A DNA stretch of 64,000 nucleotides. Origin: an uncultured Bacilli bacterium. GTDB taxonomy: Bacteria > Bacillota_I > Bacilli_A > RFN20 > CAG-826. Positions 9,569 through 40,152 of this stretch are shown one piece after another. The position numbers were made by a program, and so were the translations under genes. Each line of letters starts with the position of its first letter. Positions within the stretch are counted from its first letter, which is position 1. The notes beneath the pieces are model-generated. The model ran no database searches. It was not told the origin of the DNA and saw only the letters and a program-made list of their open reading frames with translations. The DNA is taken from positions 41,155-105,154 of the forward strand of contig CALVOX010000001.1 in the NCBI GenBank assembly GCA_944350425.1, given 5' to 3'.

Positions 9569-10864
9569 ATGGAAATAAAAAGAGAATATTATTTAAAGAA
9601 ATTAATCCAAAGAAAGAATAATGGTTTAATCAAAATTATTACAGGAATTAGAAGATGTGGCAAATCGTATTTATTAAATAATATCTTTTATAACCATTTA
9701 ATTAATGAAGGTATAAAAGAAGATCATATATTAAGATTTTCTTTTGATATAGCTGAAGATTTAGAGCTTATTGGCGAAGATTTGCTTGAATTAAGCATTA
9801 GTAAAAGAAAAGTTGATCCTAGAAAATTTATGAACTTCATTTCTAATAAAATAAAAGACAATGAAACCTATTATCTATTACTTGATGAAATACAAAATCT
9901 AGGTAGTTTTGAAATTGTTTTAAATGGTTATTTAAGAAAATCTAATTTAGATGTTTATGTCACTGGTTCAAACTCAAAATTTTTATCTTCAGATATAATA
10001 ACTGAGTTTGCTGGAAGAGGTGATGTTATTCATGTTATGCCATTAACTTTCAAAGAGTTTTATAGTGTCTATCAAGGTGATAAAGATGAAGCTTTAGATA
10101 AATATTTTCTTTATGGTGGCTTACCGGCTTTATGTTTAATGGAAACTAATGAACAAAAAATGGATTATCTAGATTTTCAGCTTAAAAATGTTTATTTAAG
10201 AGACATCATAAATCGATATAATTTAAATAACGATACAAATATTAATGAACTTTTAGATATTTTAGCTTCAAATATTTCATCATTAGTTAGTCCAAGAAAA
10301 TTATCTGATACTTTTAAAAGTAAAAAGAATATTTCCATATCTCCAGCAACTATATCTTTATACACTAAATATTTTGAAGAAGCTTTCTTAATTTCTAGCG
10401 CTAAACGATATGATATTAAAGGTAGAAAATACATTAATAGTCCGTTTAAAGTTTATTTTGAAGATATCGGTTTAAGAAATACTAGACTTAATTTTAGACA
10501 AGTAGAAGAAACTCATATTATGGAAAATGTTATTTATAATGAGCTTAGATATCGTGGTTATAAAATTGATGTAGGAGAAGTTTATTCGCTTAATAAAGAT
10601 AATACAGGAGAAAATAAAAAAATAACTTATGAAATAGATTTTGTTGCTAATAAAGGTAGTGATAGATATTACATTCAATCTTGTTATAATTTACTCAATG
10701 ATGAGAAAAAAGAACAGGAAACTAAATCTTTTGATAGCATTAAAGATTCTTTTAAAAAGATTATTATTGTTAATAAAACTTATGAACCTAGAAAAGATGA
10801 AAAAGGATATCTTATTATTGGTTTAAAAGAATTTTTATTAAACGATAATAGTTTGAATTTATAA
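9569..10864 (+). CDS. AAA+ ATPase, AAA_14/DUF4143 family (COG1373)
   Basis: Walker A GIRRCGKSYLL and Walker B LLLDEIQ, with a DUF4143-like C-terminal half. The RBS ggagaag lies 8 nt upstream. Confidence 0.8.
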   Translation: MEIKREYYLKKLIQRKNNGLIKIITGIRRCGKSYLLNNIFYNHLINEGIKEDHILRFSFDIAEDLELIGEDLLELSISKRKVDPRKFMNFISNKIKDNETYYLLLDEIQNLGSFEIVLNGYLRKSNLDVYVTGSNSKFLSSDIITEFAGRGDVIHVMPLTFKEFYSVYQGDKDEALDKYFLYGGLPALCLMETNEQKMDYLDFQLKNVYLRDIINRYNLNNDTNINELLDILASNISSLVSPRKLSDTFKSKKNISISPATISLYTKYFEEAFLISSAKRYDIKGRKYINSPFKVYFEDIGLRNTRLNFRQVEETHIMENVIYNELRYRGYKIDVGEVYSLNKDNTGENKKITYEIDFVANKGSDRYYIQSCYNLLNDEKKEQETKSFDSIKDSFKKIIIVNKTYEPRKDEKGYLIIGLKEFLLNDNSLNL

Positions 10865-25847: not shown

Positions 25848-27521
25848 ATGAATAAAGAAAAAGTAAATAAGAAAATAATTGAAGATTTATATTCAAATGA
25901 AAATATCAATGTAACTTATAATAACGGTTATAATTTTAACATTAATAATTTCACAAATTTTTATAATATATTAAATTTAGAAGAATATAAAAAACATAAG
26001 CAAAGTGGCATTTTACTTCATATTAGTCAATTGCCTTCAAAATATGGAATAGGTAGTTTAGGTAAAGAAGCCTTTAAATTTATTGATTTTTTAAAAGAAA
26101 CAGGTTTTTCTTATTGGGAAATACTTCCAATTTATGATGTTGGATATTTAAATTCCCCATTCCAAGTAATTACCTCAAAAGGATTAAATCATTATTTAAT
26201 TGATATAGAATCTTTAATTGAAGAGAATTTATTAACTTCAAGAGATTTAACTAATATTGATTTTGGAAGTAATCCTAAAAGAGTAGATTTCAACAAACTA
26301 TTTTTATATAAAGACGAAGTTCTTAAAAAAGCTTTTAAAAGATTTGATACCTCAAATCAAGAATTTATTAATTTTATTAATACTACAAATCTATCTTCTT
26401 ATTGTTTATATAAAGTAATTAAAGAAAGAAACGGTTCAAAAGCATGGTTTGATTTTGCTTTAGAAGATCGTTATTTTGATGAAGAAGTTAAATCTCATTA
26501 TATTAGACATTACCAAAAAGAAATCGAATATCAATTCTTTCTTCAATTTATCTTTTTGAAGCAATGGAATAAATTACATGATTATGCAAAAAAACAAAAT
26601 ATTGAAATAATCGGCGATCTACCTCATTTTTTAGGATATGATTCTGATGAAATGTATTTTAACCCAGAACTTTTTACGGTTGATAAAAGATACCAAGTAA
26701 CTTATGTTGCTGGTTATCCTAGTGATAATTTTAAACCTCAAGGTCAAAAATGGGGTTATCCTTTATATGATTGGGATTATATGAAATTAAATCACTACAA
26801 ATGGTGGAGAAGTAGAATTTTAGATGCTTTAAGTTTATTTGATAAAGTAAAACTAAACCATTTTAGAGGATTTTATGAAATATATGCGATTCCTTTTAGA
26901 AGTAAAAGTGCTAAAAGAGGCACTTGGATTAAAGGGCCTGGTTTAGATTTTATTTCTTCTATCTCTGATTTATCTCCTAGATTAATTGCTAGTGCTTTAG
27001 GTAATGATGATATTAAAATAACTAAATTTGTTAAAGATTCGAAGTTAGAAGTAACTAAAACTTTAATACCATCATTATTTGATAATATCGAACAAAGAAC
27101 ATATCCATCAATGGTAGATGAAAATACATATTATTATTTAGGTAATCACGATAATACAACTATTAAAACTAAATTAGATGCTTTATCAATTTTAGAAAAA
27201 GAAGAATTAGTAAATCTAATTAATAGTGAATGTGAAAAACTTAATGTTCCTTTACTAAATAGTCCATATTCTAACTTTGATATATCTTTAAAACTTAATG
27301 AACTTATCTATGCTTCAAAGGCAAATCATGTATCTCTTTTATTATCAAACGTTTTATATTTAGGTAAAGAAGCTAGACTTAATACACCAGGAACTTTAGA
27401 TACTTTAAACTGGACTTACCGTTATTTACAACATGATATTTTTAACGACAATATAAAAAAATATTTATTTAATTTAAATAAGACTTACAAAAGATTAAAT
27501 TATAAAAATTTCAAAGAATAG
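25848..27521 (+). CDS. GH77 4-alpha-glucanotransferase paralog lacking catalytic carboxylates (predicted inactive)
   Basis: Full-length alignment to the downstream MalQ2. VKLNHFRGF replaces RIDHFRGF (D to N), and LIASALGNDD replaces IVAEDLGMMDD (E to S, D to A). The HD motif is kept. It carries an extra ~50-aa N-rich N-terminus. Confidence 0.75.
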   Translation: MNKEKVNKKIIEDLYSNENINVTYNNGYNFNINNFTNFYNILNLEEYKKHKQSGILLHISQLPSKYGIGSLGKEAFKFIDFLKETGFSYWEILPIYDVGYLNSPFQVITSKGLNHYLIDIESLIEENLLTSRDLTNIDFGSNPKRVDFNKLFLYKDEVLKKAFKRFDTSNQEFINFINTTNLSSYCLYKVIKERNGSKAWFDFALEDRYFDEEVKSHYIRHYQKEIEYQFFLQFIFLKQWNKLHDYAKKQNIEIIGDLPHFLGYDSDEMYFNPELFTVDKRYQVTYVAGYPSDNFKPQGQKWGYPLYDWDYMKLNHYKWWRSRILDALSLFDKVKLNHFRGFYEIYAIPFRSKSAKRGTWIKGPGLDFISSISDLSPRLIASALGNDDIKITKFVKDSKLEVTKTLIPSLFDNIEQRTYPSMVDENTYYYLGNHDNTTIKTKLDALSILEKEELVNLINSECEKLNVPLLNSPYSNFDISLKLNELIYASKANHVSLLLSNVLYLGKEARLNTPGTLDTLNWTYRYLQHDIFNDNIKKYLFNLNKTYKRLNYKNFKE

Positions 27522-27705
27522 TTTTCACTTTTTATTTTATCGTGATTATATCAAGCATATATAAATTATGTAAATTAAGTTAAATAACACGATAACCATC
27601 GATATAATTTTAATTTTATGCAATTTTTTAATATATTTCTATAAAATTTCGTTTTAAATTTACACTTTTATCAAAATAATACGATTTTGGCTTACTTTTA
27701 TATAC

Positions 27706-27734
27706 TTGACTTAACAATAATTTGAAAATATAAT
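27706..27734 (+). promoter_or_regulatory. Sigma70-type promoter for malQ2-malEFG-amy-malK
   Basis: TTGACT, 17-nt spacer, TATAAT. Confidence 0.6.
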
Positions 27735-27747
27735 GAAAGCGCTTACA
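27734..27747 (+). promoter_or_regulatory. Catabolite-responsive element (cre) candidate
   Basis: TGAAAGCGCTTACA matches the cre consensus TGWNANCGNTNWCA at every constrained position. It lies immediately downstream of the -10. Confidence 0.5.
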
Positions 27748-27779
27748 CAAAGTATAAGCTAATTTTTTAAGGATTATAT

Positions 27780-29303
27780 ATGAAATTAAGAGAGAGTGGA
27801 ATTTTATTAAATATCTCATCATTACCTTCAAAATATGGAATTGGTAATCTTGGTAAAGAAGCATATGAATTTATTGATTTCTTAAGTAAGAGTAAATGCA
27901 ATATTTGGCAAATTTTGCCCCTAAACGTTACTTCCTATGGTGATTCACCATATCAATCTCCATCTAATTATGGTTTAAATTATTACTATATTGATTTAGA
28001 TACATTAATAGATAAAGGTTTATTAAAAGAAGAAGAAATTAAAAATATCGACTTTGGAAGTGATCCTAAAAAAGTTGATTATGGTAAATTATTCAATAAT
28101 CGTCTTAAAGTATTAAAACTTGCATTTTCAAGATTTGATACAAGAAAAGAAGATTTTAAAGATTTCATCATAAAAAATCCTAAGTTTAAAGATTTTGCTT
28201 TATTTATGACAATAAAAGAGAAACAAAATCTTAAACCTTGGTATGAGTGGGATGTTAAGTATCGTAAATATAACACTTTACTTGAAGAAGAAGTAGTAAA
28301 AGAAAACAAAGAAACAATGCTCTTCTACATCTGGACTCAATACGAATTCTTAGATGAATATACTAAATTAAAAGAATATGCTAAATCTAAAAAGATTAAG
28401 ATTATGGGCGACTTACCTATTTATGTAGCGTTTGACTCATTAGAGGTATGGAAATTCCCAAGTCTCTTCCAATTAGATGAAAATAGATTCCCAACTGCAG
28501 TAGCAGGTTGCCCACCAGATTGTTTCTCAGTTGATGGTCAATTATGGGGAAATCCATTATATAATTGGCCATATCATAAAGAAACTGGTTATAAATGGTG
28601 GAATGAAAGAATTGCTAATTGTCTAGATTTATTTGATTATCTTAGAATTGATCACTTTAGAGGATTTAGTGGATATTATTCAATTCCATTTAAAGATAAA
28701 ACTGCTAAAAATGGAAAATGGATAAAAGGTCCAGGAATTGATTTGTTTAAAGATAAATTAAATTACCCTATCGTAGCCGAAGATCTTGGCATGATGGATG
28801 ATGATTTCTATAAGTTCTTTGATAAATGTGGTTATCCAGGTATGAAGATAGTAACACAATGTTTCGATGATGATGATCCGACTAACATTTGGAGACCATC
28901 GAATTATCCATACAACTATTTCTCATATACTGCAACTCATGATTCTCCAACTACTAGACAATTTATTGATGAAAGAACTCCAGAGCAAAAAGAATTAATG
29001 CTCGAGATATTAGAAGATGAATGTAAAAAATTTAGGATTCCATTTATTAAAAGTTTAAGTAACGAACAACTTACTTTAAAAATATGTGAACTTAATTTTG
29101 CTTCTCAATCTAGAGCAGCAATCGTTCCTCTTCAAGACTTATTTGCAATCGGTAAAGAAGGAAGAATGAACTTCCCTTCAACATTATCTACCGACAACTG
29201 GTCTTTCAGAATAACTAAAGAAGCTTTTGAAGCTAAAAAGAAGGAATTAAGTGAAATTCTACTTAGGTGGAATGATAATTATCAAAGAGGCATAGATAAC
29301 TAA
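27780..29303 (+). CDS. malQ: 4-alpha-glucanotransferase (amylomaltase, GH77)
   Basis: LRIDHFRGF, PIVAEDLG and YTATHDS catalytic motifs are all intact. RBS aagga. Confidence 0.9.
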   Translation: MKLRESGILLNISSLPSKYGIGNLGKEAYEFIDFLSKSKCNIWQILPLNVTSYGDSPYQSPSNYGLNYYYIDLDTLIDKGLLKEEEIKNIDFGSDPKKVDYGKLFNNRLKVLKLAFSRFDTRKEDFKDFIIKNPKFKDFALFMTIKEKQNLKPWYEWDVKYRKYNTLLEEEVVKENKETMLFYIWTQYEFLDEYTKLKEYAKSKKIKIMGDLPIYVAFDSLEVWKFPSLFQLDENRFPTAVAGCPPDCFSVDGQLWGNPLYNWPYHKETGYKWWNERIANCLDLFDYLRIDHFRGFSGYYSIPFKDKTAKNGKWIKGPGIDLFKDKLNYPIVAEDLGMMDDDFYKFFDKCGYPGMKIVTQCFDDDDPTNIWRPSNYPYNYFSYTATHDSPTTRQFIDERTPEQKELMLEILEDECKKFRIPFIKSLSNEQLTLKICELNFASQSRAAIVPLQDLFAIGKEGRMNFPSTLSTDNWSFRITKEAFEAKKKELSEILLRWNDNYQRGIDN

Positions 29304-29421: not shown

Positions 29422-30708
29422 ATGAAAAAATTTAAATTCTTAGCCATCTTAGCAGCTGGCGCAATGGTTCTTGGGGGAGGCTTAGCATCTTGTACTCCAA
29501 GTGATAATCCAAATCCTAACCCAAATCCTAACCCAAATCCTAACCCAGAACCAGAAGGTAAAACAATTGATCTTGTTCTTTCAGGTCCAGGCGATGAAGC
29601 CGAACTTGACATGGAATTAATCGAGGACTTTAAAGAGTATCGTAAATCAATTGGTGACCCAAATACCTATAATATCGAAAGAGTTAACCACGGTGCAGAT
29701 AAAGTCGACTCTGAAGTTACTGACTGGACAACCGGACCAGATGTCTATGCATATGCTTCAGATAAAACACAAGGCTTATTCCAAAAAGGCGCTTTAGGTG
29801 TTTTAAGAGGCGATTACGAAACATTCGTTTTAGAAAATAACAGCCAAACTGGTATTGATGCTGCAACATTTAACGAAGATTTATATGGTTTCCCATATAC
29901 TGGTGATAATACATACTACTTAATGTATGATAAATCAGTATTCACAGAAGAAGATGTTCAATCAGTTGAAGGCATTTTGGCTAAATGTGCAGAAACAGGT
30001 ACAACATTTGCTTATAAATTACAAGAAGGTTTCTATGGGCAAGGTGCTATGTTCACTTTTGGTGCTGATTATAATTTAACATTCACTGAAGATGGTCAAA
30101 TCTCCACAATTGAGGCTGACTTTAATGGTGAAGCAGGTGTAAAAGCAGCTAAAGCTATTTATAGTATTGCAACAGATTCAAATTGGATTGATGAATATAT
30201 TGTAGCTGGAACTGATAACACAAAGATTGCTGTAAACGGAACTTGGAGTATTAGTGATGCTAAAGCTTTATTAGGCGATAACTATGGTTGTGCTCCTATG
30301 CCAACTGTTACAGTAGACGGTGATACAAAACCTTTAGGTAACTTTATTGGCGCTAAATTATTTGGCGTTAACCCTCAAAGATCTGGAACAGATCAAGATA
30401 GATTAACCGCTGCTTATAACTTAGCAATGTATCTTTCTGATGCTGATGCACAAGAAAAGAGATTCGACTCAAGAGAAACAGCTCCAAGTAACTTAACAGT
30501 TGCTGCATTAGACAAAGTTACTTCTAACGGAAACGTCCAAACATTAGTTAAACAAAATGAATGGGGTCATGCTCAAACTGTAGTTCCAGGTGAAGCTTGG
30601 AATGCTCCAGGTGTTTTACTTGGTGGAATTAAAGACGGAACAGTTACTTTAGATAATATCGAAGAAGCTTGTGAAGTTTATAATAACAGTATCATTAACT
30701 CTAAATAA
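29422..30708 (+). CDS. malE: Maltodextrin ABC transporter substrate-binding lipoprotein
   Basis: Lipobox LASC after MKKFKFLAILAAGAMVLGGG, then an (NP)n linker. Family-1 SBP core resembling MalE/MdxE. Confidence 0.85.
   Translation: MKKFKFLAILAAGAMVLGGGLASCTPSDNPNPNPNPNPNPNPEPEGKTIDLVLSGPGDEAELDMELIEDFKEYRKSIGDPNTYNIERVNHGADKVDSEVTDWTTGPDVYAYASDKTQGLFQKGALGVLRGDYETFVLENNSQTGIDAATFNEDLYGFPYTGDNTYYLMYDKSVFTEEDVQSVEGILAKCAETGTTFAYKLQEGFYGQGAMFTFGADYNLTFTEDGQISTIEADFNGEAGVKAAKAIYSIATDSNWIDEYIVAGTDNTKIAVNGTWSISDAKALLGDNYGCAPMPTVTVDGDTKPLGNFIGAKLFGVNPQRSGTDQDRLTAAYNLAMYLSDADAQEKRFDSRETAPSNLTVAALDKVTSNGNVQTLVKQNEWGHAQTVVPGEAWNAPGVLLGGIKDGTVTLDNIEEACEVYNNSIINSK
29506..29556 (+). repeat. In-frame tandem repeat encoding (NP)7-EPE linker
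   Basis: aatcctaaccca repeated 3 times, plus flanking aatcca / gaaccagaa units. Confidence 0.7.
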
Positions 30709-30772: not shown

Positions 30773-32314
30773 ATGTCAAATTTAGAATATTATTCTTTAT
30801 CTAGACCAAAAAGATTCTTTTATAAACTCGGTTCCTTCTTTGTAAACATTCCTCTTGGAATTGGAAGATTTTTTAAAAAACTTCCTAATAAATTAGTTAA
30901 TTTCTTTAAAAAATTTTTCACTCCCCTTGTTAATATTTGGTCATGGTTTTCTAAAGGTGACTTTTTGACCAGGCTTTCATTTGTTGTTATGGGATCGGGT
31001 CAAATCGCCAGACATCAAATAATAAGAGGCGTTTTGAACCTTTTATACGAAATCGTCGCAATCATATTTATAATTTTGGTCGGAGTACCAAGTTTTACTA
31101 AATTGCCATCATTTGGCTATATTTCATCTATACAATATGAAACTAACACACCACCATTTGTTGGCTATATGTATCAAGATGATAGTTTTAAAATTTTGCT
31201 TTATTCAGTTGTAAGCTTAATCGTAATTTTAATACTTGCCTTCCTTTGGTACACAAATATAAGAGATGCATATGAATTGCAAAGAACAAAGGAAATTGGA
31301 AGAAAAACTTCTGATCTACAAACAGTCAAAGGTTTAGTTGGCAAAGATTATCATAAGGTAATGCTTTCTATTCCTACATTAGGCATAGCTATTTTTACAG
31401 TAATTCCTTTAATTTTCATGGTGTTGGTTGCATTTACTAATTTCAATTCAAATCATATGAATCCTAAAGAATTATTTGACTGGGTAGGACTAGGAAATTT
31501 TTCACAATTATTAGGTTTGACAGGAACTAATAATGGAAATCAATTTGCAATGGTTTTCTTACAAATTCTCATTTGGACACTTATTTGGGCTTTCTTTGCA
31601 ACATTCACTAACTATTTTTTAGGAATGATTGTTGCTATCATGATCAATAAAAAAGGCATTAAGCTTAAAAAAATGTGGAGAACAATTTTAATTACAACGA
31701 TTGCAGTTCCACAATTCGTATCTTTACTTTTAATGTCAAAAATGCTTAACACAGATACAGGTGTCGTTAATGCGATTTTAAAAAATGCTGGTTTAATAAC
31801 AGAAAATATTAGATTCTTAACCGATGGTTTACTTGTAAAAGTTACAATCATCCTTGTTAACATGTGGATTGGTATTCCTTATACAATGCTCATGTGCACC
31901 GGTATTCTTATGAATATTCCTGATGATTTGTACGAATCTGCAAAGATCGATGGTGCAAGCCCTTATAAAATGTATATGAAAATTACACTTCCATATATGT
32001 TGTTTGTTACTACGCCATACTTAATTTCTCAATTCGTCGGTAATATCAACAACTTCAATGTTATTTATCTTCTTTCAAGCGGTGGTCCTATCTTCTCAAG
32101 TGTTAATGGTGAAATCATCACTGCACAAGTTTTCGGAGCTGGACAATCAGACTTGCTTATTACATGGTTATATAAAATGTCCATGGGCGAAGTATTTAAA
32201 GACTATGGCGCAGCATCAGTTATCGGAATTGTTGTCTTCGTTATCGTTGCTTTCTTCTCGCTTATTTTCTATGGAAGAAGTAATTCAGTTAAAAATGAGG
32301 AGGATTTCCAATAA
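30773..32314 (+). CDS. malF: Maltodextrin ABC transporter permease (MalF-like)
   Basis: Start at ATG 30773 (MSNLEYY…) after AAAGGAG. EAA-loop region …IDGASPYKMYMKITLP…. Confidence 0.85.
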   Translation: MSNLEYYSLSRPKRFFYKLGSFFVNIPLGIGRFFKKLPNKLVNFFKKFFTPLVNIWSWFSKGDFLTRLSFVVMGSGQIARHQIIRGVLNLLYEIVAIIFIILVGVPSFTKLPSFGYISSIQYETNTPPFVGYMYQDDSFKILLYSVVSLIVILILAFLWYTNIRDAYELQRTKEIGRKTSDLQTVKGLVGKDYHKVMLSIPTLGIAIFTVIPLIFMVLVAFTNFNSNHMNPKELFDWVGLGNFSQLLGLTGTNNGNQFAMVFLQILIWTLIWAFFATFTNYFLGMIVAIMINKKGIKLKKMWRTILITTIAVPQFVSLLLMSKMLNTDTGVVNAILKNAGLITENIRFLTDGLLVKVTIILVNMWIGIPYTMLMCTGILMNIPDDLYESAKIDGASPYKMYMKITLPYMLFVTTPYLISQFVGNINNFNVIYLLSSGGPIFSSVNGEIITAQVFGAGQSDLLITWLYKMSMGEVFKDYGAASVIGIVVFVIVAFFSLIFYGRSNSVKNEEDFQ

Positions 32315-33177
32315 TGTCTGCTAAAGTCGAACGTTATCACAGTAAGAAATTTAAGGAAATTTCTTCAAAAACACTTATTTACATCCTTTTAGTTATCATT
32401 TCGATAATATGGTTAATACCATTTGTTTATTTGGTATTTCAATCATTTGCTCAAAGTTATTCACCTTCAAACTTTATTCCAGCTGCTTGGACATTTGATA
32501 ACTATATTAATTTATTTACGGATATATCTTATCCATTTGGTAGATGGTATTTAAATACACTACTTATTGCTATTATTACCGCAATACTACAAACAGTTTT
32601 TACTTTAATGACTGCTTATGCATTCTCAAGATTAAGATTTAGATCAAGACAAGCATATATGAAATTTATTCTTGTAATCGGTATGTTCCCATCTTTCTTA
32701 GGAATGATTGTTACATATTTCTTATTACAAATGATAGGTTTATCAGCTTCAATATTTGGTCTCATCGTTATTTATGTTGCAGGTTCTGGAATGGGATACT
32801 ACGTTGCTAAAGGTTTCTTTGACACAATTCCAAAGTCATTAGATGAAGCTGCAATGATTGATGGTGCAAACAAAAATACAGTATTCTGGAAAGTTATTTT
32901 ACCTTTAGCAAAACCAATCGTTGTTTACACAGTTCTTATGAGTTTCACTGCTCCATGGGGTGACTATATGATGGCATCATATATTGCGCAAGGAAAACAA
33001 GAACTATTCAATGTTGCTGTTGGTTTGCAACAAATGATGACGAAAGGTAATGATATTAAATACTTCCCTCAATTCTGCGCTGGAGGTGTATTTGTCTCTA
33101 TTGGAATTATGGCTTTATTCTTCTGGTTACAAAAATATTATGTTGAAGGTGTAACAGGAGGAGCTGTTAAGGGTTAA
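32314..33177 (+). CDS. malG: Maltodextrin ABC transporter permease (MalG-like)
   Basis: 6 TM helices; EAA motif LDEAAMIDGANKNTVFWKVILPL. TAATG overlap with malF. Confidence 0.9.
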   Translation: MSAKVERYHSKKFKEISSKTLIYILLVIISIIWLIPFVYLVFQSFAQSYSPSNFIPAAWTFDNYINLFTDISYPFGRWYLNTLLIAIITAILQTVFTLMTAYAFSRLRFRSRQAYMKFILVIGMFPSFLGMIVTYFLLQMIGLSASIFGLIVIYVAGSGMGYYVAKGFFDTIPKSLDEAAMIDGANKNTVFWKVILPLAKPIVVYTVLMSFTAPWGDYMMASYIAQGKQELFNVAVGLQQMMTKGNDIKYFPQFCAGGVFVSIGIMALFFWLQKYYVEGVTGGAVKG

Positions 33178-33181
33178 AAAA

Positions 33182-34801
33182 ATGAAAAAAAGTAAATTAT
33201 TAATTATAACCTCACTTTTGTCTCTATTATCAATTGCATCTTGTACACCAGCAAATCCTTATGATGAAACATATGGCTACAGAATAGAAGAAAACATTGA
33301 TGATGTAACGCCTATTGATGATAACTATCGCAATTATTATGAAATCTTTGTAAGATCTTTCGCAGATTCTGATGGAGATGGAATAGGCGACTTAAATGGT
33401 ATAATAGAAAAATTAGATTATATAGAAGATTTGGAATATACAGGAATATGGTTAATGCCAATAAATCCTTCGCAATCTTATCATAAATATGATGTAGATA
33501 ATTATTATGAAATTGATCCGGACTATGGAACAATTGACGATTTAAAAAATCTAGTATCAATAGCACATGATAAAGGGATTAATGTTATTCTAGATCTTGT
33601 ACTTAACCATTCGTCTTTATACACTGAAGAATTTAAACTAGCAAGCGAAGCTTACAATAAATATATAAAAGGCGAAACATTAAACGAAGATGAACTTAGA
33701 TATTACGATTATTATTCATTTTTCGAAGGACAGGATGATCCTGATGCAAAGGGAAAAACACTATATAAACACCCAATTTATAACTTTTATTACGAAGGTA
33801 ATTTCTCTAGCTCAATGCCTGAATTGAATTTAGATTCACAATATGTAAAAGAAGATATTGAATCAATTGTTAAATACTACATAGATATAGGAATTGACGG
33901 TTTTAGACTCGACGCAGTTTTATATTATTTTATAAATAACACATCAAAAAATGTTGAATTTCTTAATTGGTTTAATTCTTATGTAAAATCGCTTGACGAA
34001 AACGCTTATATCGTAGGCGAAGCTTGGACTAGTGATCAAGTGATAAAACAATACTACGAATCGGGAATAGATTCTTTCTTCTATTTCGATGGATCGACAT
34101 CAAATCCTAATGGATTTTATCTAAACTCAACAAATTTAGATGGCAAACTTGCAAATTCATATTATGAAGGCTTACTAGACCTTATAGATACTTCATCAAA
34201 TGGTATTCCAGCCCCATTTCTAGATAATCATGATATGTCTAGATATGTTAGGGTTAATTCAATTGAAAAAACAAAATTCTATTATGGATTACTTTCAATG
34301 TCTAATGGAACAACATTTACATATTATGGTGATGAAGTTGGAATGGGCGGAACTATTCCACCAGATCAAAACGTAAGAACTTCAATAAGATGGGGTGAAG
34401 ATGATGAGAAATACGATACAGTTCAATTAACAGGTATAACAGCAGAAGTTTATCCTTACGGAACTGTAAAAGAAAATCTGGAAAACTCTAATTCTATCCT
34501 TAATTATTATAAAAAAGCTAATTATTTGAGAAATAAATTTAAATCAATAGCTAGAGGTGAAATATCTTTAGCAGAATTCGATAAAGATAGAGGGCTATTA
34601 ATAATTACTAAGTCTTACCTTGACGAAGAAATAAATATCGCTATTAATTTTAAAGAAAGAGATAACATCATTCTTACATCTAGCGATATAAGTGATAAAG
34701 AAATTGTCGGACAATTAATTGTCGATAACTCTAAATATATCGGTGAATTAAACGATGGAACTATAATTCTTCCACCTTATTCAATAGCGATATTCAAATA
34801 A
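33182..34801 (+). CDS. Lipoprotein GH13 alpha-amylase (surface-anchored)
   Basis: Lipobox IASC. GIDGFRLDAV, VGEAWT and LDNHDMSR catalytic regions. Confidence 0.85.
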   Translation: MKKSKLLIITSLLSLLSIASCTPANPYDETYGYRIEENIDDVTPIDDNYRNYYEIFVRSFADSDGDGIGDLNGIIEKLDYIEDLEYTGIWLMPINPSQSYHKYDVDNYYEIDPDYGTIDDLKNLVSIAHDKGINVILDLVLNHSSLYTEEFKLASEAYNKYIKGETLNEDELRYYDYYSFFEGQDDPDAKGKTLYKHPIYNFYYEGNFSSSMPELNLDSQYVKEDIESIVKYYIDIGIDGFRLDAVLYYFINNTSKNVEFLNWFNSYVKSLDENAYIVGEAWTSDQVIKQYYESGIDSFFYFDGSTSNPNGFYLNSTNLDGKLANSYYEGLLDLIDTSSNGIPAPFLDNHDMSRYVRVNSIEKTKFYYGLLSMSNGTTFTYYGDEVGMGGTIPPDQNVRTSIRWGEDDEKYDTVQLTGITAEVYPYGTVKENLENSNSILNYYKKANYLRNKFKSIARGEISLAEFDKDRGLLIITKSYLDEEINIAINFKERDNIILTSSDISDKEIVGQLIVDNSKYIGELNDGTIILPPYSIAIFK

Positions 34802-34823: not shown

Positions 34824-37373
34824 ATGGCAAACATTAAATTAGACCACATCTATAAAGTTTATCCTAATGGTGTTAAAGCTGTCTCTGATTTTACAATGGA
34901 CATTAAAGATAAAGAATTCATTGTTTTCGTTGGGCCTTCGGGATGTGGCAAATCAACAACCTTAAGAATGATTGCTGGTCTAGAAGATATTAGCGCTGGC
35001 GAACTTTATATTGACGATAGAATTGTTAATGATGTTGAACCAAAAGATAGAGATATTGCAATGGTTTTCCAAAACTATGCACTTTATCCACACATGACTG
35101 TTTATGAAAATATGGCATTCGGTTTACAACTTAGACACGTTCCAACTGAAGAAATTCATGAAAGAGTCTTATGGGCTGCAAATATCTTGGGTTTAACAGA
35201 TTATTTAGATAGAAAACCTAGAGCAATGTCTGGTGGGCAAAGACAAAGAGTCGCTTTAGGTAGAGCTATCTTAAGAAATCCTAAAGTCATGTTACTTGAT
35301 GAACCACTTTCAAACCTTGATGCTAAACTTAGAGCACAAATGAGAAGTGAAATTGCAAAACTTCATCAAGATTTACAAACTACATTTATTTACGTCACTC
35401 ACGACCAAGTAGAAGCTATGACTCTTGGAACAAGAGTAGTTGTTATGAAACTTGGTGAAATTCAACAAATTGACTCACCAAAGAATTTATATGATTATCC
35501 ACAAAACAAGTTCGTTGCTGGTTTTATTGGAACACCTCAAATGAATTTCTTCCAAGCTACATTGCTTAGAAAAGGTGACCAAGTAGAAATTAATTTTGAA
35601 TGGTCTGATAATAAACTCATGGTTGATGCTAATGAATTAATTAAGGTCCAACCTTATTATCTTGACGGAAAGCATAAAGTCTGGTTTGGTATTAGATGTG
35701 AAGATATTTCATTGCTTGGACCTGGAGATCAAGTTAATCCAGAAGATAACTTCAATGTCAAAATTTCCCATTTCGAAGAACTTGGTAATGAAACATTAAT
35801 TTATGGCGATATTAATATGAATGGCGATGGCTTTAAAGAAACATCAACAAGAATTATTATTAAAGCTTTAAATTCAAATGGTTTAAACATTGGAGACGTT
35901 GTAAAGGCTAAACTTAACTTAGAAAAAGCACACTTCTTTGATATTAATAGTGAAGTATCAATCGTTCCGCGCATACCTACATTAAACGTTATATCTTGTA
36001 AAATTAACGGACATGAATTAACTTTTGATGGAAATACATTAACTTTACCAAAAGTAGTTGAAGTTAAAGAAGGAGATGGACAACTTTATTTACCAATTAA
36101 CGCTTTAAGCATTGATCAAAACGGAAAAGTTAATGCTAAAGTAATTAAAATTGAGCAAGTCGAAGATAAAAAACTTGCTTACTTAAAATTGAATGAAAGA
36201 GTCTTATTCTTGCTCGTTGGAGATGATGTTAAAGTTGGAGATGAAGTTAAACTTAATATTGACATAACTCAAATTACTATCAAAGATGGAGAAGAAGTAT
36301 TAGTTTCAACTTTGAAGAAATATAATGAAATTTCCTCAACATTTGTAAACTTTGTTACAGCAAATACTAATGAAAAGAACAAATACAATCCAATATTAAA
36401 TTCAAGAATCGAAGAAGTTAACAAGTCTTTTGATGAAAAAATTAAAGAAGTTAATGCAAAATATGATGCTTTAATTAAAGAAAATTCTTCAAAAGATTTA
36501 GCAGCAATTAAAGAAGTTAATAATAAGAAGATTGCCGAATTAACTCAAGAAACAAATGCTAAACTTAAAGAACTTGATGCAAATTATAAAAAGAACATTG
36601 CTGAAGTTAAAAAAGAACATAAAGTTAATAAGAAACAAGTCGTTTTAAAAGTTAAAGAAGAGCAAGAAAGAATTAAACGTGAAGAAAATGAATCTTACAA
36701 GAAATTCTTAAAAGTTAACAAAGATAAAGATGTTTATCATAAACGTAAAACCGAACATCAAGATTTTAAAGAAAATTTCCCTAAGGAAAGAGAAAATCTT
36801 ATCAATAAGGCTATAGATGGCGAAGCTTTAAACTTTGAAACTGCTCTTAACGAAATTAAAGCTCCTTATAAGAGAGACAAAAAAATACTTAAAAACAACT
36901 ATAAAACAACTGTTAAAGCACTTAAAGACGAGTACAACATCATTGAGGTATTGAATAAAGAAAGAAATGAGGAACTTTCTCGACTCACAAAACAAAAGAA
37001 AGTAGATTTAGCAAAAGCTAAACAAATCTTCTTCCTTAAAATTAACGGTCACTTATATCAATCGCCGGACACAATTTCTAATAAGATGATTCAAGGTTTA
37101 GGAACTAAAGTATTTGTTAAAGACTTCATCATTGAAATTCCTAATGATAAGATTCGTGTTAGCGATGAAGGATTAAAGGCTACTGTTGAATCTTTCTTAG
37201 ACTATGGTGATAAAAAATTTGTTATTTGTAATGTTAAAGAAGAAGACGGCAGCGAACACGAATTCTATGTCTTAAATGATAAAGAAATTGCCAAAGGAAC
37301 AGAAATTCATTTAACATTTGACTTAATTGATACCCACATTACTGAAAAATCAATGAATCTTAGAATTTATTAA
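34824..37373 (+). CDS. malK: MalK/MsmK-type ABC ATPase with ~480-aa C-terminal extension
   Basis: Walker A GPSGCGKST, signature LSGGQRQRV, Walker B LLDEPLSNLD, and the canonical TOBE-like regulatory domain to about aa 370. Then extra OB-like segments and a K/E-rich coiled-coil (…KEVNAKYDALIKEN…KVKEEQERIKREEN…). Confidence 0.85.
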   Translation: MANIKLDHIYKVYPNGVKAVSDFTMDIKDKEFIVFVGPSGCGKSTTLRMIAGLEDISAGELYIDDRIVNDVEPKDRDIAMVFQNYALYPHMTVYENMAFGLQLRHVPTEEIHERVLWAANILGLTDYLDRKPRAMSGGQRQRVALGRAILRNPKVMLLDEPLSNLDAKLRAQMRSEIAKLHQDLQTTFIYVTHDQVEAMTLGTRVVVMKLGEIQQIDSPKNLYDYPQNKFVAGFIGTPQMNFFQATLLRKGDQVEINFEWSDNKLMVDANELIKVQPYYLDGKHKVWFGIRCEDISLLGPGDQVNPEDNFNVKISHFEELGNETLIYGDINMNGDGFKETSTRIIIKALNSNGLNIGDVVKAKLNLEKAHFFDINSEVSIVPRIPTLNVISCKINGHELTFDGNTLTLPKVVEVKEGDGQLYLPINALSIDQNGKVNAKVIKIEQVEDKKLAYLKLNERVLFLLVGDDVKVGDEVKLNIDITQITIKDGEEVLVSTLKKYNEISSTFVNFVTANTNEKNKYNPILNSRIEEVNKSFDEKIKEVNAKYDALIKENSSKDLAAIKEVNNKKIAELTQETNAKLKELDANYKKNIAEVKKEHKVNKKQVVLKVKEEQERIKREENESYKKFLKVNKDKDVYHKRKTEHQDFKENFPKERENLINKAIDGEALNFETALNEIKAPYKRDKKILKNNYKTTVKALKDEYNIIEVLNKERNEELSRLTKQKKVDLAKAKQIFFLKINGHLYQSPDTISNKMIQGLGTKVFVKDFIIEIPNDKIRVSDEGLKATVESFLDYGDKKFVICNVKEEDGSEHEFYVLNDKEIAKGTEIHLTFDLIDTHITEKSMNLRIY

Positions 37374-37394: not shown

Positions 37395-37952
37395 ATGAAA
37401 CACAAAATAAAAATGTTTGCCCTTGGTTCATTATTAGGAATTCTAACTTCTTGTGGAGCACCTAAAGGCTACTTAAGTTATGATGAAATTTCTTCTAAAG
37501 TTTCTTCGTTCTCTGATTTAAGTTATACGACCTATTCATATGAAGGTTACTTTAATTGCAGAGGATTAGAAGGAGACTTTGATGCCCAAGGTAATAACGT
37601 TCAGTTTAGTAACGATAAAACATCTTACTATTTAAGTCTTCCTTTAAAATTAGAATCGGAAAATCTTGAAACGCAATATCAAACAATAGTCAATAAATTT
37701 GTTACATCAGATTCTATTGATACTGTTTATTGCTATGATACAAGCGATGATGGATTGGTTTTTAGGACTTTCGGCATTAATAAAAGATTAATTATTTCTA
37801 GATTCGGAATGGAAATAAGTGCTAAATGGAATGCCTATATCGCGTATGATTCAAATGGCTATCTAATTAGCGAAAAATTTGAAACAATTAATGTTGGCTC
37901 TGATCCTGATAGTCAAACAGTATATGGATATTCTGAATATTCATATAATTAA
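37395..37952 (+). CDS. Lipoprotein of unknown function
   Basis: Lipobox ILTSC; AGGAGG RBS 8 nt upstream. Confidence 0.6.
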   Translation: MKHKIKMFALGSLLGILTSCGAPKGYLSYDEISSKVSSFSDLSYTTYSYEGYFNCRGLEGDFDAQGNNVQFSNDKTSYYLSLPLKLESENLETQYQTIVNKFVTSDSIDTVYCYDTSDDGLVFRTFGINKRLIISRFGMEISAKWNAYIAYDSNGYLISEKFETINVGSDPDSQTVYGYSEYSYN

Positions 37953-37982
37953 TAAATAATTAATTTATTAAAATTATGTATA

Positions 37983-38013
37983 ATAAGGTTGATACAAATT
38001 GTATCAACCTTAT
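37983..38013 (+). terminator. 13-bp perfect hairpin between the two lipoprotein genes
   Basis: ataaggttgatacaa-a-ttgtatcaaccttat. T-tract weak. Confidence 0.35.
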
Positions 38014-38037
38014 TGATTAAATTTAATATTAACAACT

Positions 38038-38772
38038 ATGATACTTAAAAGAAAAATATCGACAGCTATATTTTCATTACTTACTATATTTTCATTAGCT
38101 TCATGTACTTCTAAAATTCCTGATGGTCCTGTTAAAGATTATATAAATGGTTTCTCCATTACTTTAGCTGAAAAAAATATTCACTCTGCATCCTTAATAT
38201 ATGAAAATATCGAATATGATGCTGATGGTAAAGAAAAAGGTAAAGCCTATTGCTACTTTGAATTTGACAATAATGACTCTGATTATCCATATTTATATTT
38301 ATACCGTACTTATGAAGGCAGTTTAATTCAAGATGACGGAATAAAAGAAAAAGAAGTACTTCAATATATTTCTAATGAAAATGAAGAAGTAGGTTATGAT
38401 AAAACCGATGGAGTAATTAAAGAACTCGATGTTAGTAAGACAACAATTAATGATTCAATAACTTCATTCTTTTATAAAGATAAAACTTATGATTATTACC
38501 GTGGCGGTCTTTATTATGGTGATTTAGTTAAGATAAGCGCTGAAAAATGGCATATTAACTTTTCGATTAATGAAGATGGATTATTACGTTATCATTTACT
38601 AAATGATATGACTTATGAAGGCGTAATTTTTAATACTGATTATACTTTAACAAAAGAAGGTATGTTAAAAGACTATTATTATGATGGGCAAATAATCGAA
38701 ACTAAAGAAAAAGTAGTTAATACCATAAATGTTACATATAATGTTTCTTTAAATAAAAAAGAAACACTATGA
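38038..38772 (+). CDS. Lipoprotein of unknown function
   Basis: Lipobox LASC after MILKRKISTAIFSLLTIFS. No obvious RBS. Confidence 0.55.
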   Translation: MILKRKISTAIFSLLTIFSLASCTSKIPDGPVKDYINGFSITLAEKNIHSASLIYENIEYDADGKEKGKAYCYFEFDNNDSDYPYLYLYRTYEGSLIQDDGIKEKEVLQYISNENEEVGYDKTDGVIKELDVSKTTINDSITSFFYKDKTYDYYRGGLYYGDLVKISAEKWHINFSINEDGLLRYHLLNDMTYEGVIFNTDYTLTKEGMLKDYYYDGQIIETKEKVVNTINVTYNVSLNKKETL

Positions 38773-38989
38773 TTTATATAACCTGTAAGCACTTTCATTA
38801 ATTTTTTATAAAATTCCTAAAAAATACGATAATCATCAATATTTTTTTATGAAAATTTAATGAAAATATTTCTATTTTCTATCTAATTGAGGCCCTAAAA
38901 TTTATTATCTTTTTATTTCTACTGTAAAATAAAATCATTCAAAAGAAATTTAACTTTTGAACGAAACCACTCATAGGAGGTAAAAAGAT

Positions 38990-39148
38990 ATGTCTAATTT
39001 TAAAAAATTCTTATTTGATAACAATGATTACGAATATACAAGAAATGAAAATAAGGATAATGTTGAATTAATTGGAGTTTCTTCATTTTCATATAAATAT
39101 GGTGAAGTTATTCCTTCAGTATCATTTATTAGAAAAATCAATAACTAA
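38990..39148 (+). CDS. Small ORF (52 aa) with strong RBS
   Basis: AGGAGG 9 nt upstream of the ATG. MSNFKKFLFDNNDYEYTRNENKDNVELIGVSSFSYKYGEVIPSVSFIRKINN. Followed by a terminator. Confidence 0.35.
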   Translation: MSNFKKFLFDNNDYEYTRNENKDNVELIGVSSFSYKYGEVIPSVSFIRKINN

Positions 39149-39286: not shown

Positions 39287-40036
39287 AATAAAGAAACATG
39301 TGGCTTTGCTTCTCTTCTTAGAAAAGTTAGTGTTATAGGTGATTCTTTATCTAGTGGTGAATTTGAATCTACTGATGAAAAAGGAAATATTGTCTATAAC
39401 GATATGTATGAATATTCTTGGCCTAGCATTTTAAGTAGATTAACCGGCGCTGAATATCTAAATTTTTCTAGAGGCGGGATGATATTTAAAGAGTTTTACG
39501 AAACACGGGCAGACAAAAATAATTTTTGCGTAAAATGCCCAGCTTACATTATTTTCTTAGGAAATAATGATTTATTTGTATACAATCAAAAAGTAGAAGC
39601 GTAAGCGACATTAACTTACTTGATCCATCTAAAAATCCTGACACTTATTTTGGATATATGGGAAAAGTTATTTCAAAACTAAAATCTTTAGAAAAGGATG
39701 CAAGAATCTTTTTAACTTCAATACAAATTGACGAAATGAGTGAAGAAAGAACAAGAGTAGTTAAATATGTTAGCGAAGAAATGAAATAGTCGTTAAACTT
39801 TATTCTTTCACATATTTATTAGATTTTACCCAATATTTATTCAAATATGATGAAGAAGCAATAAAAAAATTGCCATGGGATTTCATCCATCTCCATTAGG
39901 ATACTACTCATTAGCTTTAGCTTTTGGGAATTACATTGATTATATAATTCGTCAAAATCCAGAAGACTTTAGAAAAATGGCCTTTGTAGGTACTGAATTA
40001 ATAAACATCAGTTATCCTGACAATTTTGGCGAATAA
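39287..40036 (+). pseudogene. SGNH/GDSL hydrolase pseudogene (no start codon; frameshifts and stops)
   Basis: The frame opens at 39287 without any ATG/GTG/TTG before VIGDSLSSG (GDSL block I). A 66-aa piece ends at 39604. Downstream frames carry …GYMGKVISKL… and …PWDFIHLH (DxxH block V) separated by stops. Confidence 0.6.
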
Positions 40037-40152
40037 TTAAAAAACTTGTTAAAAATATGTCTCATATAATTTATTTGATGAATTAGTTTCATTTATAAAA
40101 TCATCCTATTTTTGTTCTTGTATTCAATACTAAAAGGTATAAAATTTCAGTC

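What the first reader, a model, noticed from the sequence alone, without database searches (positions are those of the whole stretch)
27706..27747. Near-consensus promoter with a perfect cre box immediately downstream of the -10
TTGACT-17-TATAAT is followed directly by TGAAAGCGCTTACA, a palindromic perfect match to the CcpA cre consensus. This implies carbon-catabolite repression of the malQ2-malEFG-amy-malK operon by a roadblock mechanism. Retention of CcpA-type control in a reduced Mollicute-like genome would be notable. No maltose-specific regulator is encoded in the locus.
Basis: partly seen in the sequence, partly recalled or inferred. Interest (0 to 1): 0.5.

Follow-up and report, generated by a model that had tools for sequence, protein, structure and literature searches.

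The report
Conserved catabolite-type operator on maltodextrin promoter
A 14-base palindrome touching the promoter of a maltodextrin-uptake operon in an uncultured low-GC gut bacterium is a real, strongly conserved repressor binding site of the well-known cre/LacI-family kind. This makes it an ordinary regulatory switch, and the protein that binds it could not be identified.

Summary
TTGACT (27706-27711), a 17-nt spacer and TATAAT (27729-27734) are followed by TGAAAGCGCTTACA (27734-27747), which shares the last T of the -10 and lies 46 nt before the malQ2 ATG.

The site matches both cre consensus patterns perfectly. It matches the B. subtilis high-affinity consensus at 13 of 14 positions, and 6 of its 7 palindrome pairs hold.

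Conservation is the strongest evidence. The 19-nt block TATAATGAAAGCGCTTACA is essentially invariant upstream of malQ2 orthologues in 11 species (60-92% protein identity). Flanking DNA shows only about 59% majority-base agreement. It is therefore a functional operator, not a chance match.

No LacI-family gene lies within 10 kb in the window or in any low-GC relative, so the regulator acts in trans.

The site straddles the predicted transcription start, like amyE amyO. Repression of initiation is therefore more likely than a roadblock.

I could not test whether the binder is CcpA, because the rest of the genome was out of reach. A relative has a non-CcpA LacI regulator with an equally cre-like operator. 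Acholeplasma already has a predicted CcpA with a nearly identical motif, so retention here is not very surprising.

Verdict: a new member of a known kind, of modest interest.

The parts
27706..27711 (+). -35 hexamer TTGACT
   Evidence: The same column reads TTGACT, TTGACA or TTTACA in 9 of 11 relatives.
27729..27734 (+). -10 hexamer TATAAT, 17 nt from the -35
   Evidence: It reads TATAAT in 10 of 11 species and TAGAAT in L012.
27734..27747 (.). cre-type operator TGAAAGCGCTTACA, with central CG at 27740-27741. It shares its first T with the -10.
   Evidence: It matches the consensus patterns perfectly. It is identical in 10 of 11 species of 60-92% MalQ2 identity, and also in L038.
27741..27741 (+). 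Predicted transcription start (about 7 nt after the -10). This is inferred, not mapped.
   Evidence: Inferred from promoter geometry. It places the operator at about -7 to +7.
27769..27773 (+). Shine-Dalgarno AAGGA
   Evidence: It lies 6 nt before the ATG at 27780.
27780..29303 (+). malQ2, a 4-alpha-glucanotransferase (GH77) and the first gene of the operon
   Evidence: Pfam PF02446, E=3e-150.
29422..30708 (+). Lipoprotein solute-binding protein (MalE-like)
   Evidence: Pfam SBP_bac_8, E=8e-21. The sequence has a lipobox.
30773..32314 (+). ABC permease (MalF-like)
   Evidence: Pfam BPD_transp_1. The start is taken from the gene called in L001.
32314..33177 (+). ABC permease (MalG-like)
   Evidence: Pfam BPD_transp_1.
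33182..34801 (+). Lipoprotein alpha-amylase (GH13)
   Evidence: Pfam Alpha-amylase, E=1e-69.
34824..37373 (+). MalK-like ABC ATPase with a long C-terminal extension
   Evidence: Pfam ABC_tran, OB_MalK and TOBE_2. NCBIfam UgpC/MalK.
37395..38772 (+). Two lipoprotein genes of unknown function that end the conserved gene string
   Evidence: No Pfam match. They are syntenic in L003-L008 and L013.
38784..38797 (.). Second cre-like palindrome TGTAAGCACTTTCA, with a CA centre instead of CG, just after the operon's last stop codon
   Evidence: TGAAAGCACTTTCA-type copies sit at the same place in L003, L006, L008, L009 and L013. Its function is unknown.

Best explanation
The 14-bp box is the operator of a dimeric LacI/GalR-family repressor that is encoded elsewhere in the genome. 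The most likely binder is a CcpA orthologue working with seryl-phosphorylated HPr, which would make the box a cre.

The box begins at the last base of the -10 and is centred on the predicted transcription start. Bound repressor should therefore block or stall RNA polymerase at initiation of the malQ2-malEFG-amy-malK(-lipoprotein) operon when a preferred sugar is plentiful. This is the arrangement of the B. subtilis amyE amyO site.

Shown:
- the sequence
- its exact conservation together with the promoter
- the absence of a nearby regulator gene
- the absence of RNA structure

Inferred:
- the start site
- the family of the binder
- CcpA/HPr(Ser-P) as its identity
- the glucose signal
For: - Consensus match: the box matches both cre consensus patterns perfectly and is 13/14 to the high-affinity consensus TGAAAGCGCTTTCA (consensus from PMC3463425).
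- Conservation: the block TATAATGAAAGCGCTTACA has 99% majority-base agreement in 11 species, against 59% in the flanks. The -35 is also kept. The same block occurs in L038, from a 1.07-Mb contig.
- More distant relatives: the Enterosoma-like group keeps a variant box, TTAAA[AT]CGCTT[AT]CA, at the malQ promoter.
- Regulator in trans: no LacI-family gene lies within +-10 kb in the window or in any of the low-GC relatives. This fits a global regulator better than a local one.
- Other promoters: the same motif type occurs in sequence variants that all fit TGWAANCGNTNWCA. These lie upstream of a conserved 52-aa ORF in L006, L008, L009, L010 and L013. One lies at L029:3088, 58 nt upstream of ackA in this genome.
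- Statistics: 2 perfect sites occur in 81.9 kb against 0.12 expected, P about 0.007. In low-GC metagenome loci, 7 of 8 perfect sites are intergenic although only 12% of the DNA is.
- Not an RNA element: there is no Rfam hit and no significant RNA fold (z = -0.58).
- Precedent: A. laidlawii has a CcpA homologue with the predicted motif TTGTAAGNNCTTACAA and a regulon of carbohydrate operons.
Against: - ccpA, hprK and ptsH were not found. They are absent from the 82 kb read, and searches for a clade-specific CcpA failed.
- The ackA site is not conserved in 78 AckA-relative loci.
- The other alpha-glucan promoters here (malQ1/GH13, glgB, glgP) lack a box. Evidence for a broad regulon in this genome is therefore thin.
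- A relative's RbsR/PurR-like LacI regulator lacks the CcpA HPr-binding motif. It sits in an operon whose promoter carries TGTAAGCGCTGTCA. A cre-like box therefore does not identify CcpA.
- In Listeria, glucose repression of the maltodextrin genes is independent of CcpA (PMC2860498).
Confidence: 0.55

Rival explanations
1. The box is the operator of a maltodextrin-specific LacI-family regulator (MalR/MdxR type) encoded at a distance. It would respond to maltose or maltodextrin, possibly also using P-Ser-HPr as E. faecalis MalR does, rather than being bound by the global CcpA.
For: - The best-conserved site sits on the alpha-glucan operon, and in the Enterosoma group it travels with malQ alone.
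- The ackA site is lineage-specific.
- A non-CcpA LacI regulator with a cre-like operator exists in a related low-GC organism.
- E. faecalis MalR represses the mal operons and uses HPr(Ser-P) (cited in PMC11906611).
Against: - Sugar-specific LacI regulators are usually encoded next to their targets. None is within 10 kb in the window or in the low-GC relatives.
- The GCGC core and TGAAAG arms match the CcpA optimum.
- Motif variants occur at non-mal promoters: the 52-aa ORF and ackA.
- malQ1, the divergent GH13 gene, glgB and glgP have no box.
Confidence: 0.25
2. The block is conserved for promoter or transcript reasons, not as a protein operator. It could be a preferred initial transcribed sequence or a 5'-UTR element.
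For: - The conserved block includes the -10 and the first transcribed bases.
- A weak GCTT...AAGC pairing is possible in 6 of 11 species.
Against: - There is no Rfam match.
- The fold is no better than that of shuffled sequences (z = -0.58).
- The same palindromic motif recurs in variant forms at unrelated promoters and in different positions relative to the -10. This is expected of a DNA-binding dimer, not of a leader RNA.
Confidence: 0.06
3. The palindrome is bound by a dimeric regulator of another family and only mimics cre.
For: No regulator was identified. Reduced genomes sometimes re-use sites.
Against: A 14-bp palindrome with TG/CA ends and a central CG is the hallmark of LacI/GalR operators. 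The only regulator found beside such a box in the related loci is of the LacI family.
Confidence: 0.08
4. The box is a chance match with no function.
For: The degenerate consensus is expected 0.54 times per window. Promoter-like matches are common in AT-rich DNA.
Against: The exact 14-mer is kept at the same promoter in more than 10 species whose flanks have diverged.
Confidence: 0.02

Closest known systems
B. subtilis amyE operator amyO (the classical cre) and other promoter-overlapping cre sites (acuA, bglP, dctP, glpF)
   Same: - It is a 14-bp TG...CG...CA pseudo-palindrome.
- It is centred on the start site of a starch/alpha-glucan gene. The amyE cre centre is at +4 (PMC3463425); here it is about 0 by geometry.
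- Repression at initiation is expected.
   Different: - The binder and the HPr(Ser-P) dependence are untested here.
- The box fuses with the -10, sharing one base.
- The host is an uncultured low-GC Bacilli lineage.
Predicted CcpA regulon of Acholeplasma laidlawii (ACL_RS05870, motif TTGTAAGNNCTTACAA; Fisunov et al. 2016, PMC5138195)
   Same: - The half-sites are nearly identical (TGTAAG/CTTACA).
- The targets are carbohydrate transport and utilisation operons.
- The host is a low-GC, wall-less or reduced relative of Bacilli with few regulators.
   Different: - It is a different lineage.
- A CcpA gene is identified in Acholeplasma but not here.
- Both cases rest on prediction, with no binding experiments.
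MalR-type LacI repressors of maltose/maltodextrin operons (S. pneumoniae, E. faecalis)
   Same: - The target is an amylomaltase plus maltodextrin ABC transporter operon.
- The operator is a palindrome at the promoter.
- E. faecalis MalR also uses HPr(Ser-P).
   Different: - malR genes normally sit beside their operons, and none does here or in the low-GC relatives.
- The box has the CcpA-optimal GCGC core.
Roadblock cre sites (xyl, ara, gnt, sigL, acsA of B. subtilis)
   Same: The motif and the presumed protein are the same.
   Different: Those sites lie tens to hundreds of bases inside the transcribed region. This one overlaps -10/+1. A roadblock would apply only to possible read-through from malQ1, and no terminator is predicted between 27521 and 27706.

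Membership tests
CcpA-dependent cre site | Sequence fits the cre consensus (TGWAANCGNTNWCA / WTGNAANCGNWNNCW) with G2, a central CG and C13 | tested here: met
   The box matches both patterns perfectly and is 13/14 to the high-affinity consensus.
CcpA-dependent cre site | Located in or near the promoter, or early in the transcribed region, of a carbon-catabolic operon | tested here: met
   The box abuts the -10 of the GH77/ABC/GH13 operon.
CcpA-dependent cre site | Genome encodes a CcpA orthologue (LacI family with HPr-Ser-P-binding helix IX residues) | not testable with these tools
   None is present in the 82 kb read. Searches seeded with B. subtilis CcpA returned only Bacillus, Lactobacillus or Clostridia-like proteins.
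CcpA-dependent cre site | Genome encodes HPr (Ser46) and HPr kinase/phosphorylase | not testable with these tools
   tblastn with HPr and HprK probes found nothing in the window or in any fetched locus. The rest of the genome is unavailable.
CcpA-dependent cre site | Belongs to a multi-operon (global) regulon with cre sites at different catabolic promoters | tested here: inconclusive
   - For: a second perfect site lies near ackA, and variant sites lie upstream of a 52-aa ORF in relatives.
- Against: the ackA site is not conserved, and the glgB, glgP and malQ1 promoters lack sites.
CcpA-dependent cre site | Glucose-dependent repression that is lost in ccpA or hprK mutants | not testable with these tools
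   This needs an experiment, and the organism is uncultured.
Housekeeping sigma-70/SigA promoter | -35 and -10 hexamers close to consensus, 16-18 nt apart, upstream of a gene start | tested here: met
   The match is 11/12 with a 17-nt spacer, 46 nt before the ATG. It is conserved in relatives. The start site has not been mapped.
Locally encoded sugar-specific LacI repressor/operator pair (MalR type) | Regulator gene adjacent to the regulated operon | tested here: not met
   No LacI-family ORF lies within +-10 kb in the window or in the low-GC loci L003-L021. Only the Lachnospiraceae locus L023 has one.
Transcriptional roadblock | Operator well downstream of the transcription start, so that elongating polymerase is stopped | tested here: not met
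   The box spans about -7 to +7 of the start predicted from the -10. The start site is inferred, not measured.

The most novel reading that the evidence does not exclude
These small-genome gut Bacilli may have lost a separate CcpA. A single remaining LacI-family protein would then serve both as maltodextrin repressor and as catabolite sensor. This would be a merged MalR/CcpA, perhaps using HPr(Ser-P) as E. faecalis MalR does, with a tiny regulon: the mal operon, a conserved 52-aa ORF and lineage-specific extras such as ackA.
Probability: 0.15. Interest if true: 0.45.

Novelty: new member of a known kind. Interest (0 to 1): 0.25.

Why it matters
It provides a firmly conserved cis-element in an uncultured, low-GC gut lineage for which no regulation is known. 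The invariant 19-nt promoter/operator block is a ready anchor for reconstructing the carbon-control regulon from MAGs, and for heterologous tests such as EMSA or a B. subtilis reporter. It suggests that starch and maltodextrin scavenging in these bacteria is switched off when better sugars are present. It does not change what is known about catabolite control.

Tried and rejected
1. Looking for ccpA, hprK and ptsH.
The CcpA probe proved 98-99% identical to real Bacillus CcpA sequences.
- The probes were run against the window, 10-kb extensions at both ends and 110 related loci. The only hits were a LacI gene in the Lachnospiraceae locus L023 and an RbsR/PurR-like gene in L089-L092, L099 and L101.

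2. Finding a clade-specific CcpA in the protein databases.
- The B. subtilis CcpA search returned only Bacillus proteins.
- The representative search gave 150 proteins, which I ranked by AT-rich composition and by the CcpA helix-IX signature.
- P0172 lacks the signature, and its relatives are Spirochaete- or Fusibacter-like.
- P0131 is a Lactobacillus CcpA.
- P0258 lies on a Clostridia-like contig with chemotaxis genes.
- None of these links to this organism.

3. Walking along the 240-kb contig with proteins from fetched loci.

4. Conservation of the ackA-proximal site. It was absent in 0 of 78 AckA-relative loci.

5. An RNA element or terminator reading. There is no Rfam hit and no significant fold. 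The terminator-like hit on the minus strand lacks a T tract.

6. Organism names from cluster members. None were available.

7. Literature on RF39 and catabolite control. Nothing relevant was found.

Full report
**Observation.** The window sequence reads TTGACT (27706-27711), a 17-nt spacer, TATAAT (27729-27734) and TGAAAGCGCTTACA (27734-27747). The last T of the -10 is the first T of the box. AAGGA lies at 27769-27773 and the malQ2 ATG at 27780.
- The promoter scan scores 11/12. The window holds only three matches of 11/12 or better on both strands, against about 6.5 expected from a first-order Markov model. The promoter match by itself is therefore not statistically special.
- The box is the only perfect WTGNAANCGNWNNCW match in 64 kb, with 0.54 expected. 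It fits TGWAANCGNTNWCA on both strands.
- It is one mismatch from TGAAAGCGCTTTCA, which is the high-affinity cre consensus derived in B. subtilis (PMC3463425).
- It is an imperfect palindrome: 6 of 7 pairs are symmetric.

**Genes.**
- GH77 amylomaltase (27780-29303)
- SBP_bac_8 lipoprotein
- two BPD_transp_1 permeases
- GH13 lipoprotein amylase
- a MalK-like ATPase of 849 aa
- two lipoproteins of unknown function

A second GH77 gene (25848-27521) and a divergent GH13 gene lie upstream. No predicted terminator lies between malQ1 and the promoter.

**Organism.** The window is part of a 240-kb metagenome scaffold (ena:ERZ28613962 scaffold_9).
- GC content is about 27%, and TGA is a stop codon.
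- No source names the organism.
- The closest genomes are MAGs filed as uncultured Bacilli/Bacillales bacteria. More distant ones are filed as Candidatus Enterosoma (NCBI lineage).
- From memory, GTDB places Enterosoma in the order RF39. I could not verify that here, nor the genome size.

**Conservation, the key result.** A scan of species-representative genomes with MalQ2 gave 23 loci.
- In ten species with 60-92% MalQ2 identity, the identical 14-mer lies 28-56 nt before the orthologous start codon. An eleventh (L010) has TGGTAGCGCTTACA.
- In the alignment, the 19-nt block TATAATGAAAGCGCTTACA has 99% majority-base agreement and 16 invariant columns. The figures are 79% for the -35, 64% for the spacer and 59% for the remaining flank.
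- The same block precedes malQ on a 1.07-Mb contig from another metagenome (L038).
- The operon malQ2-malE-malF-malG-amy-malK-lipo1-lipo2 is syntenic in L003-L008 and L013.
- In the Enterosoma-like group (50-54% identity, 42-45% GC), a variant box TTAAA[AT]CGCTT[AT]CA lies just upstream of the -10. A CG-less TGAA...TTCA remnant follows the -10.
- This is classic phylogenetic footprinting of a protein binding site tied to the malQ promoter.

**Not an RNA element.** There is no Rfam match at E<=1. The 5' leader folds no better than shuffled sequences (z = -0.58).

**Who binds it?** tblastn with CcpA and LacI probes found no LacI-family gene in the window or within +-10 kb of malQ2 in any low-GC relative. 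Only a Lachnospiraceae locus has one. The regulator therefore acts in trans in all of them, which is more typical of a global regulator than of a sugar-specific one.

The motif also occurs elsewhere:
- In relatives, one or two variant boxes (TGAAAACGTTTTCA, TGAAAACGTTTACA, AGAAAGCGTTTTCA, TGTAACCGTTTTCA, TGTAAACGCTTACT, TGTAAGCGGTTACT, TGAAAGCGCTTATA) precede a conserved ORF of about 52 aa just downstream of the operon.
- Ten kb upstream of the window, in the same genome, TGTAACCGCTTACA lies 58 nt before ackA. It overlaps a possible -35 (GTTACA-18-TATAGT).
- Two perfect sites in 81.9 kb compare with 0.12 expected (P about 0.007).
- In 449 kb of low-GC metagenome loci, 7 of 8 perfect sites are intergenic although only 12% of that DNA is.

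**Limits of the CcpA reading.**
- The ackA site is absent from all 78 AckA-relative loci with usable upstream sequence.
- The malQ1/GH13, glgB and glgP promoters of this genome have no box.
- Six of the intergenic sites belong to one operon in human-gut contigs (L089-L092, L099, L101). There, TGTAAGCGCTGTCA overlaps the -35 of a perfect TTGACA-17-TATAAT promoter.
- That operon encodes a MalK-like ATPase, a LacI-family protein, permeases, a binding protein and a nucleoside hydrolase.
- Its LacI protein scores best as RbsR/PurR-like and lacks the CcpA HPr-binding signature. LacI regulators other than CcpA therefore use cre-like operators in this part of the tree.
- E. faecalis MalR is a further precedent: a mal-specific LacI repressor that also uses HPr(Ser-P).
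- In Listeria, glucose repression of the maltodextrin genes does not need CcpA.

**The genome-level test** (ccpA, hprK, ptsH) could not be done.
- The three genes are absent from the 82 kb I could read.
- Database searches seeded with B. subtilis CcpA did not lead to a protein from this lineage.

**Mechanism.** With the -10 ending at 27734, the start site should be near 27741, so the box spans roughly -7 to +7.
- In B. subtilis, cre sites that overlap the promoter or start site (amyE at +4, acuA, bglP, dctP, glpF) act on initiation.
- Roadblocks are documented for sites well inside the transcript, such as xyl, ara, gnt, sigL and acsA.
- I therefore favour an initiation block. A roadblock would matter only for read-through from malQ1.

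**Novelty.**
- Fisunov et al. (PMC5138195) report that A. laidlawii and other Acholeplasmatales keep a CcpA homologue. Its predicted motif is TTGTAAGNNCTTACAA and its regulon comprises three carbohydrate operons. They also report that HPr kinase is present in nearly all Mollicutes.
- The present lineage is filed within Bacilli. My understanding from general knowledge, not checked here, is that CcpA is common in that class.
- The element is thus a new, very well conserved member of a known kind.

**Confidence.** I put about 0.9 on a functional protein operator, about 0.8 on a LacI-family binder and about 0.55 on CcpA specifically.

Noticed in passing
window 38784-38797: A cre-like palindrome with a CA centre instead of CG (TGTAAGCACTTTCA) sits 12 nt after the stop codon of the last operon gene. 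TGAAAGCACTTTCA-type copies occupy the same place in L003, L006, L008, L009 and L013. Its function is unknown. It could be a weak operator or part of a 3' end signal.
   Followed up: partly
window 38990-39148: A conserved 52-aa ORF with a strong AGGAGG ribosome-binding site has no Pfam match. Homologues in L003, L006, L008 and L009 follow the mal operon, as do similar small ORFs in L010 and L013. In L006, L008, L009, L010 and L013 they are preceded by one or two good cre boxes. In the window and in L003 the corresponding boxes have decayed.
   Followed up: partly
window 39300-40040: A fragmented SGNH/GDSL-type hydrolase pseudogene, with pieces in several frames. The gene is intact and fused to the end of the operon in L004 and L005.
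   Followed up: partly
L029:3088-3101 (about 5.2 kb upstream of the window start, same scaffold): A perfect cre match, TGTAACCGCTTACA, lies between ackA (minus strand, start 58 nt away) and a 463-aa gene. It overlaps a possible ackA -35. It is not conserved in 78 AckA-relative loci.
   Followed up: yes
window 34824-37373: The MalK-like ATPase is 849 aa long. About 470 residues beyond the ABC, OB_MalK and TOBE domains form a lysine/glutamate-rich extension with no family match. The L090 homologue (637 aa) is also extended.
   Followed up: no
window 25848-27521 and 27780-29303: Two tandem GH77 amylomaltase paralogues. Only the second has the promoter/operator block. The first carries an extra N-terminal stretch of about 50 aa. 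The tandem pair is kept in most relatives.
   Followed up: partly
L090:9265-9278 (also L089, L091, L092, L099, L101): In human-gut low-GC contigs, TGTAAGCGCTGTCA overlaps the -35 of a perfect TTGACA-17-TATAAT promoter. The operon it drives encodes an ABC ATPase, an RbsR/PurR-like LacI regulator, permeases, a binding protein and a nucleoside hydrolase. It is probably an autoregulated nucleoside or ribose system.
   Followed up: partly
L014, L016-L020 around 9930-9990: In the Enterosoma-like group the CG-centred box sits upstream of the -10. A TGAA...TTCA remnant without a central CG follows the -10, where the box lies in the low-GC group. This suggests either operator relocation or two operators.
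   Followed up: no
window 27545-27574 (minus strand): A promoter-like match, TTTACA-18-TATAAT with a TG before the -10, points back into the 3' end of malQ1. It may be a chance match or an antisense promoter.
   Followed up: no
window 2985-5242 (minus strand): A cluster of an XRE-type HTH protein, a DUF4417 protein with faint M78-peptidase similarity, and two small unknown ORFs. It is possibly a prophage remnant or a mobile or defence module. A Macro-domain gene lies next to it.
   Followed up: no
window 27712-27728: The promoter spacer keeps TTTGAAA[AT] directly before the -10 in the window and in L003-L008. This is more conserved than the rest of the spacer, and no reason is known.
   Followed up: no
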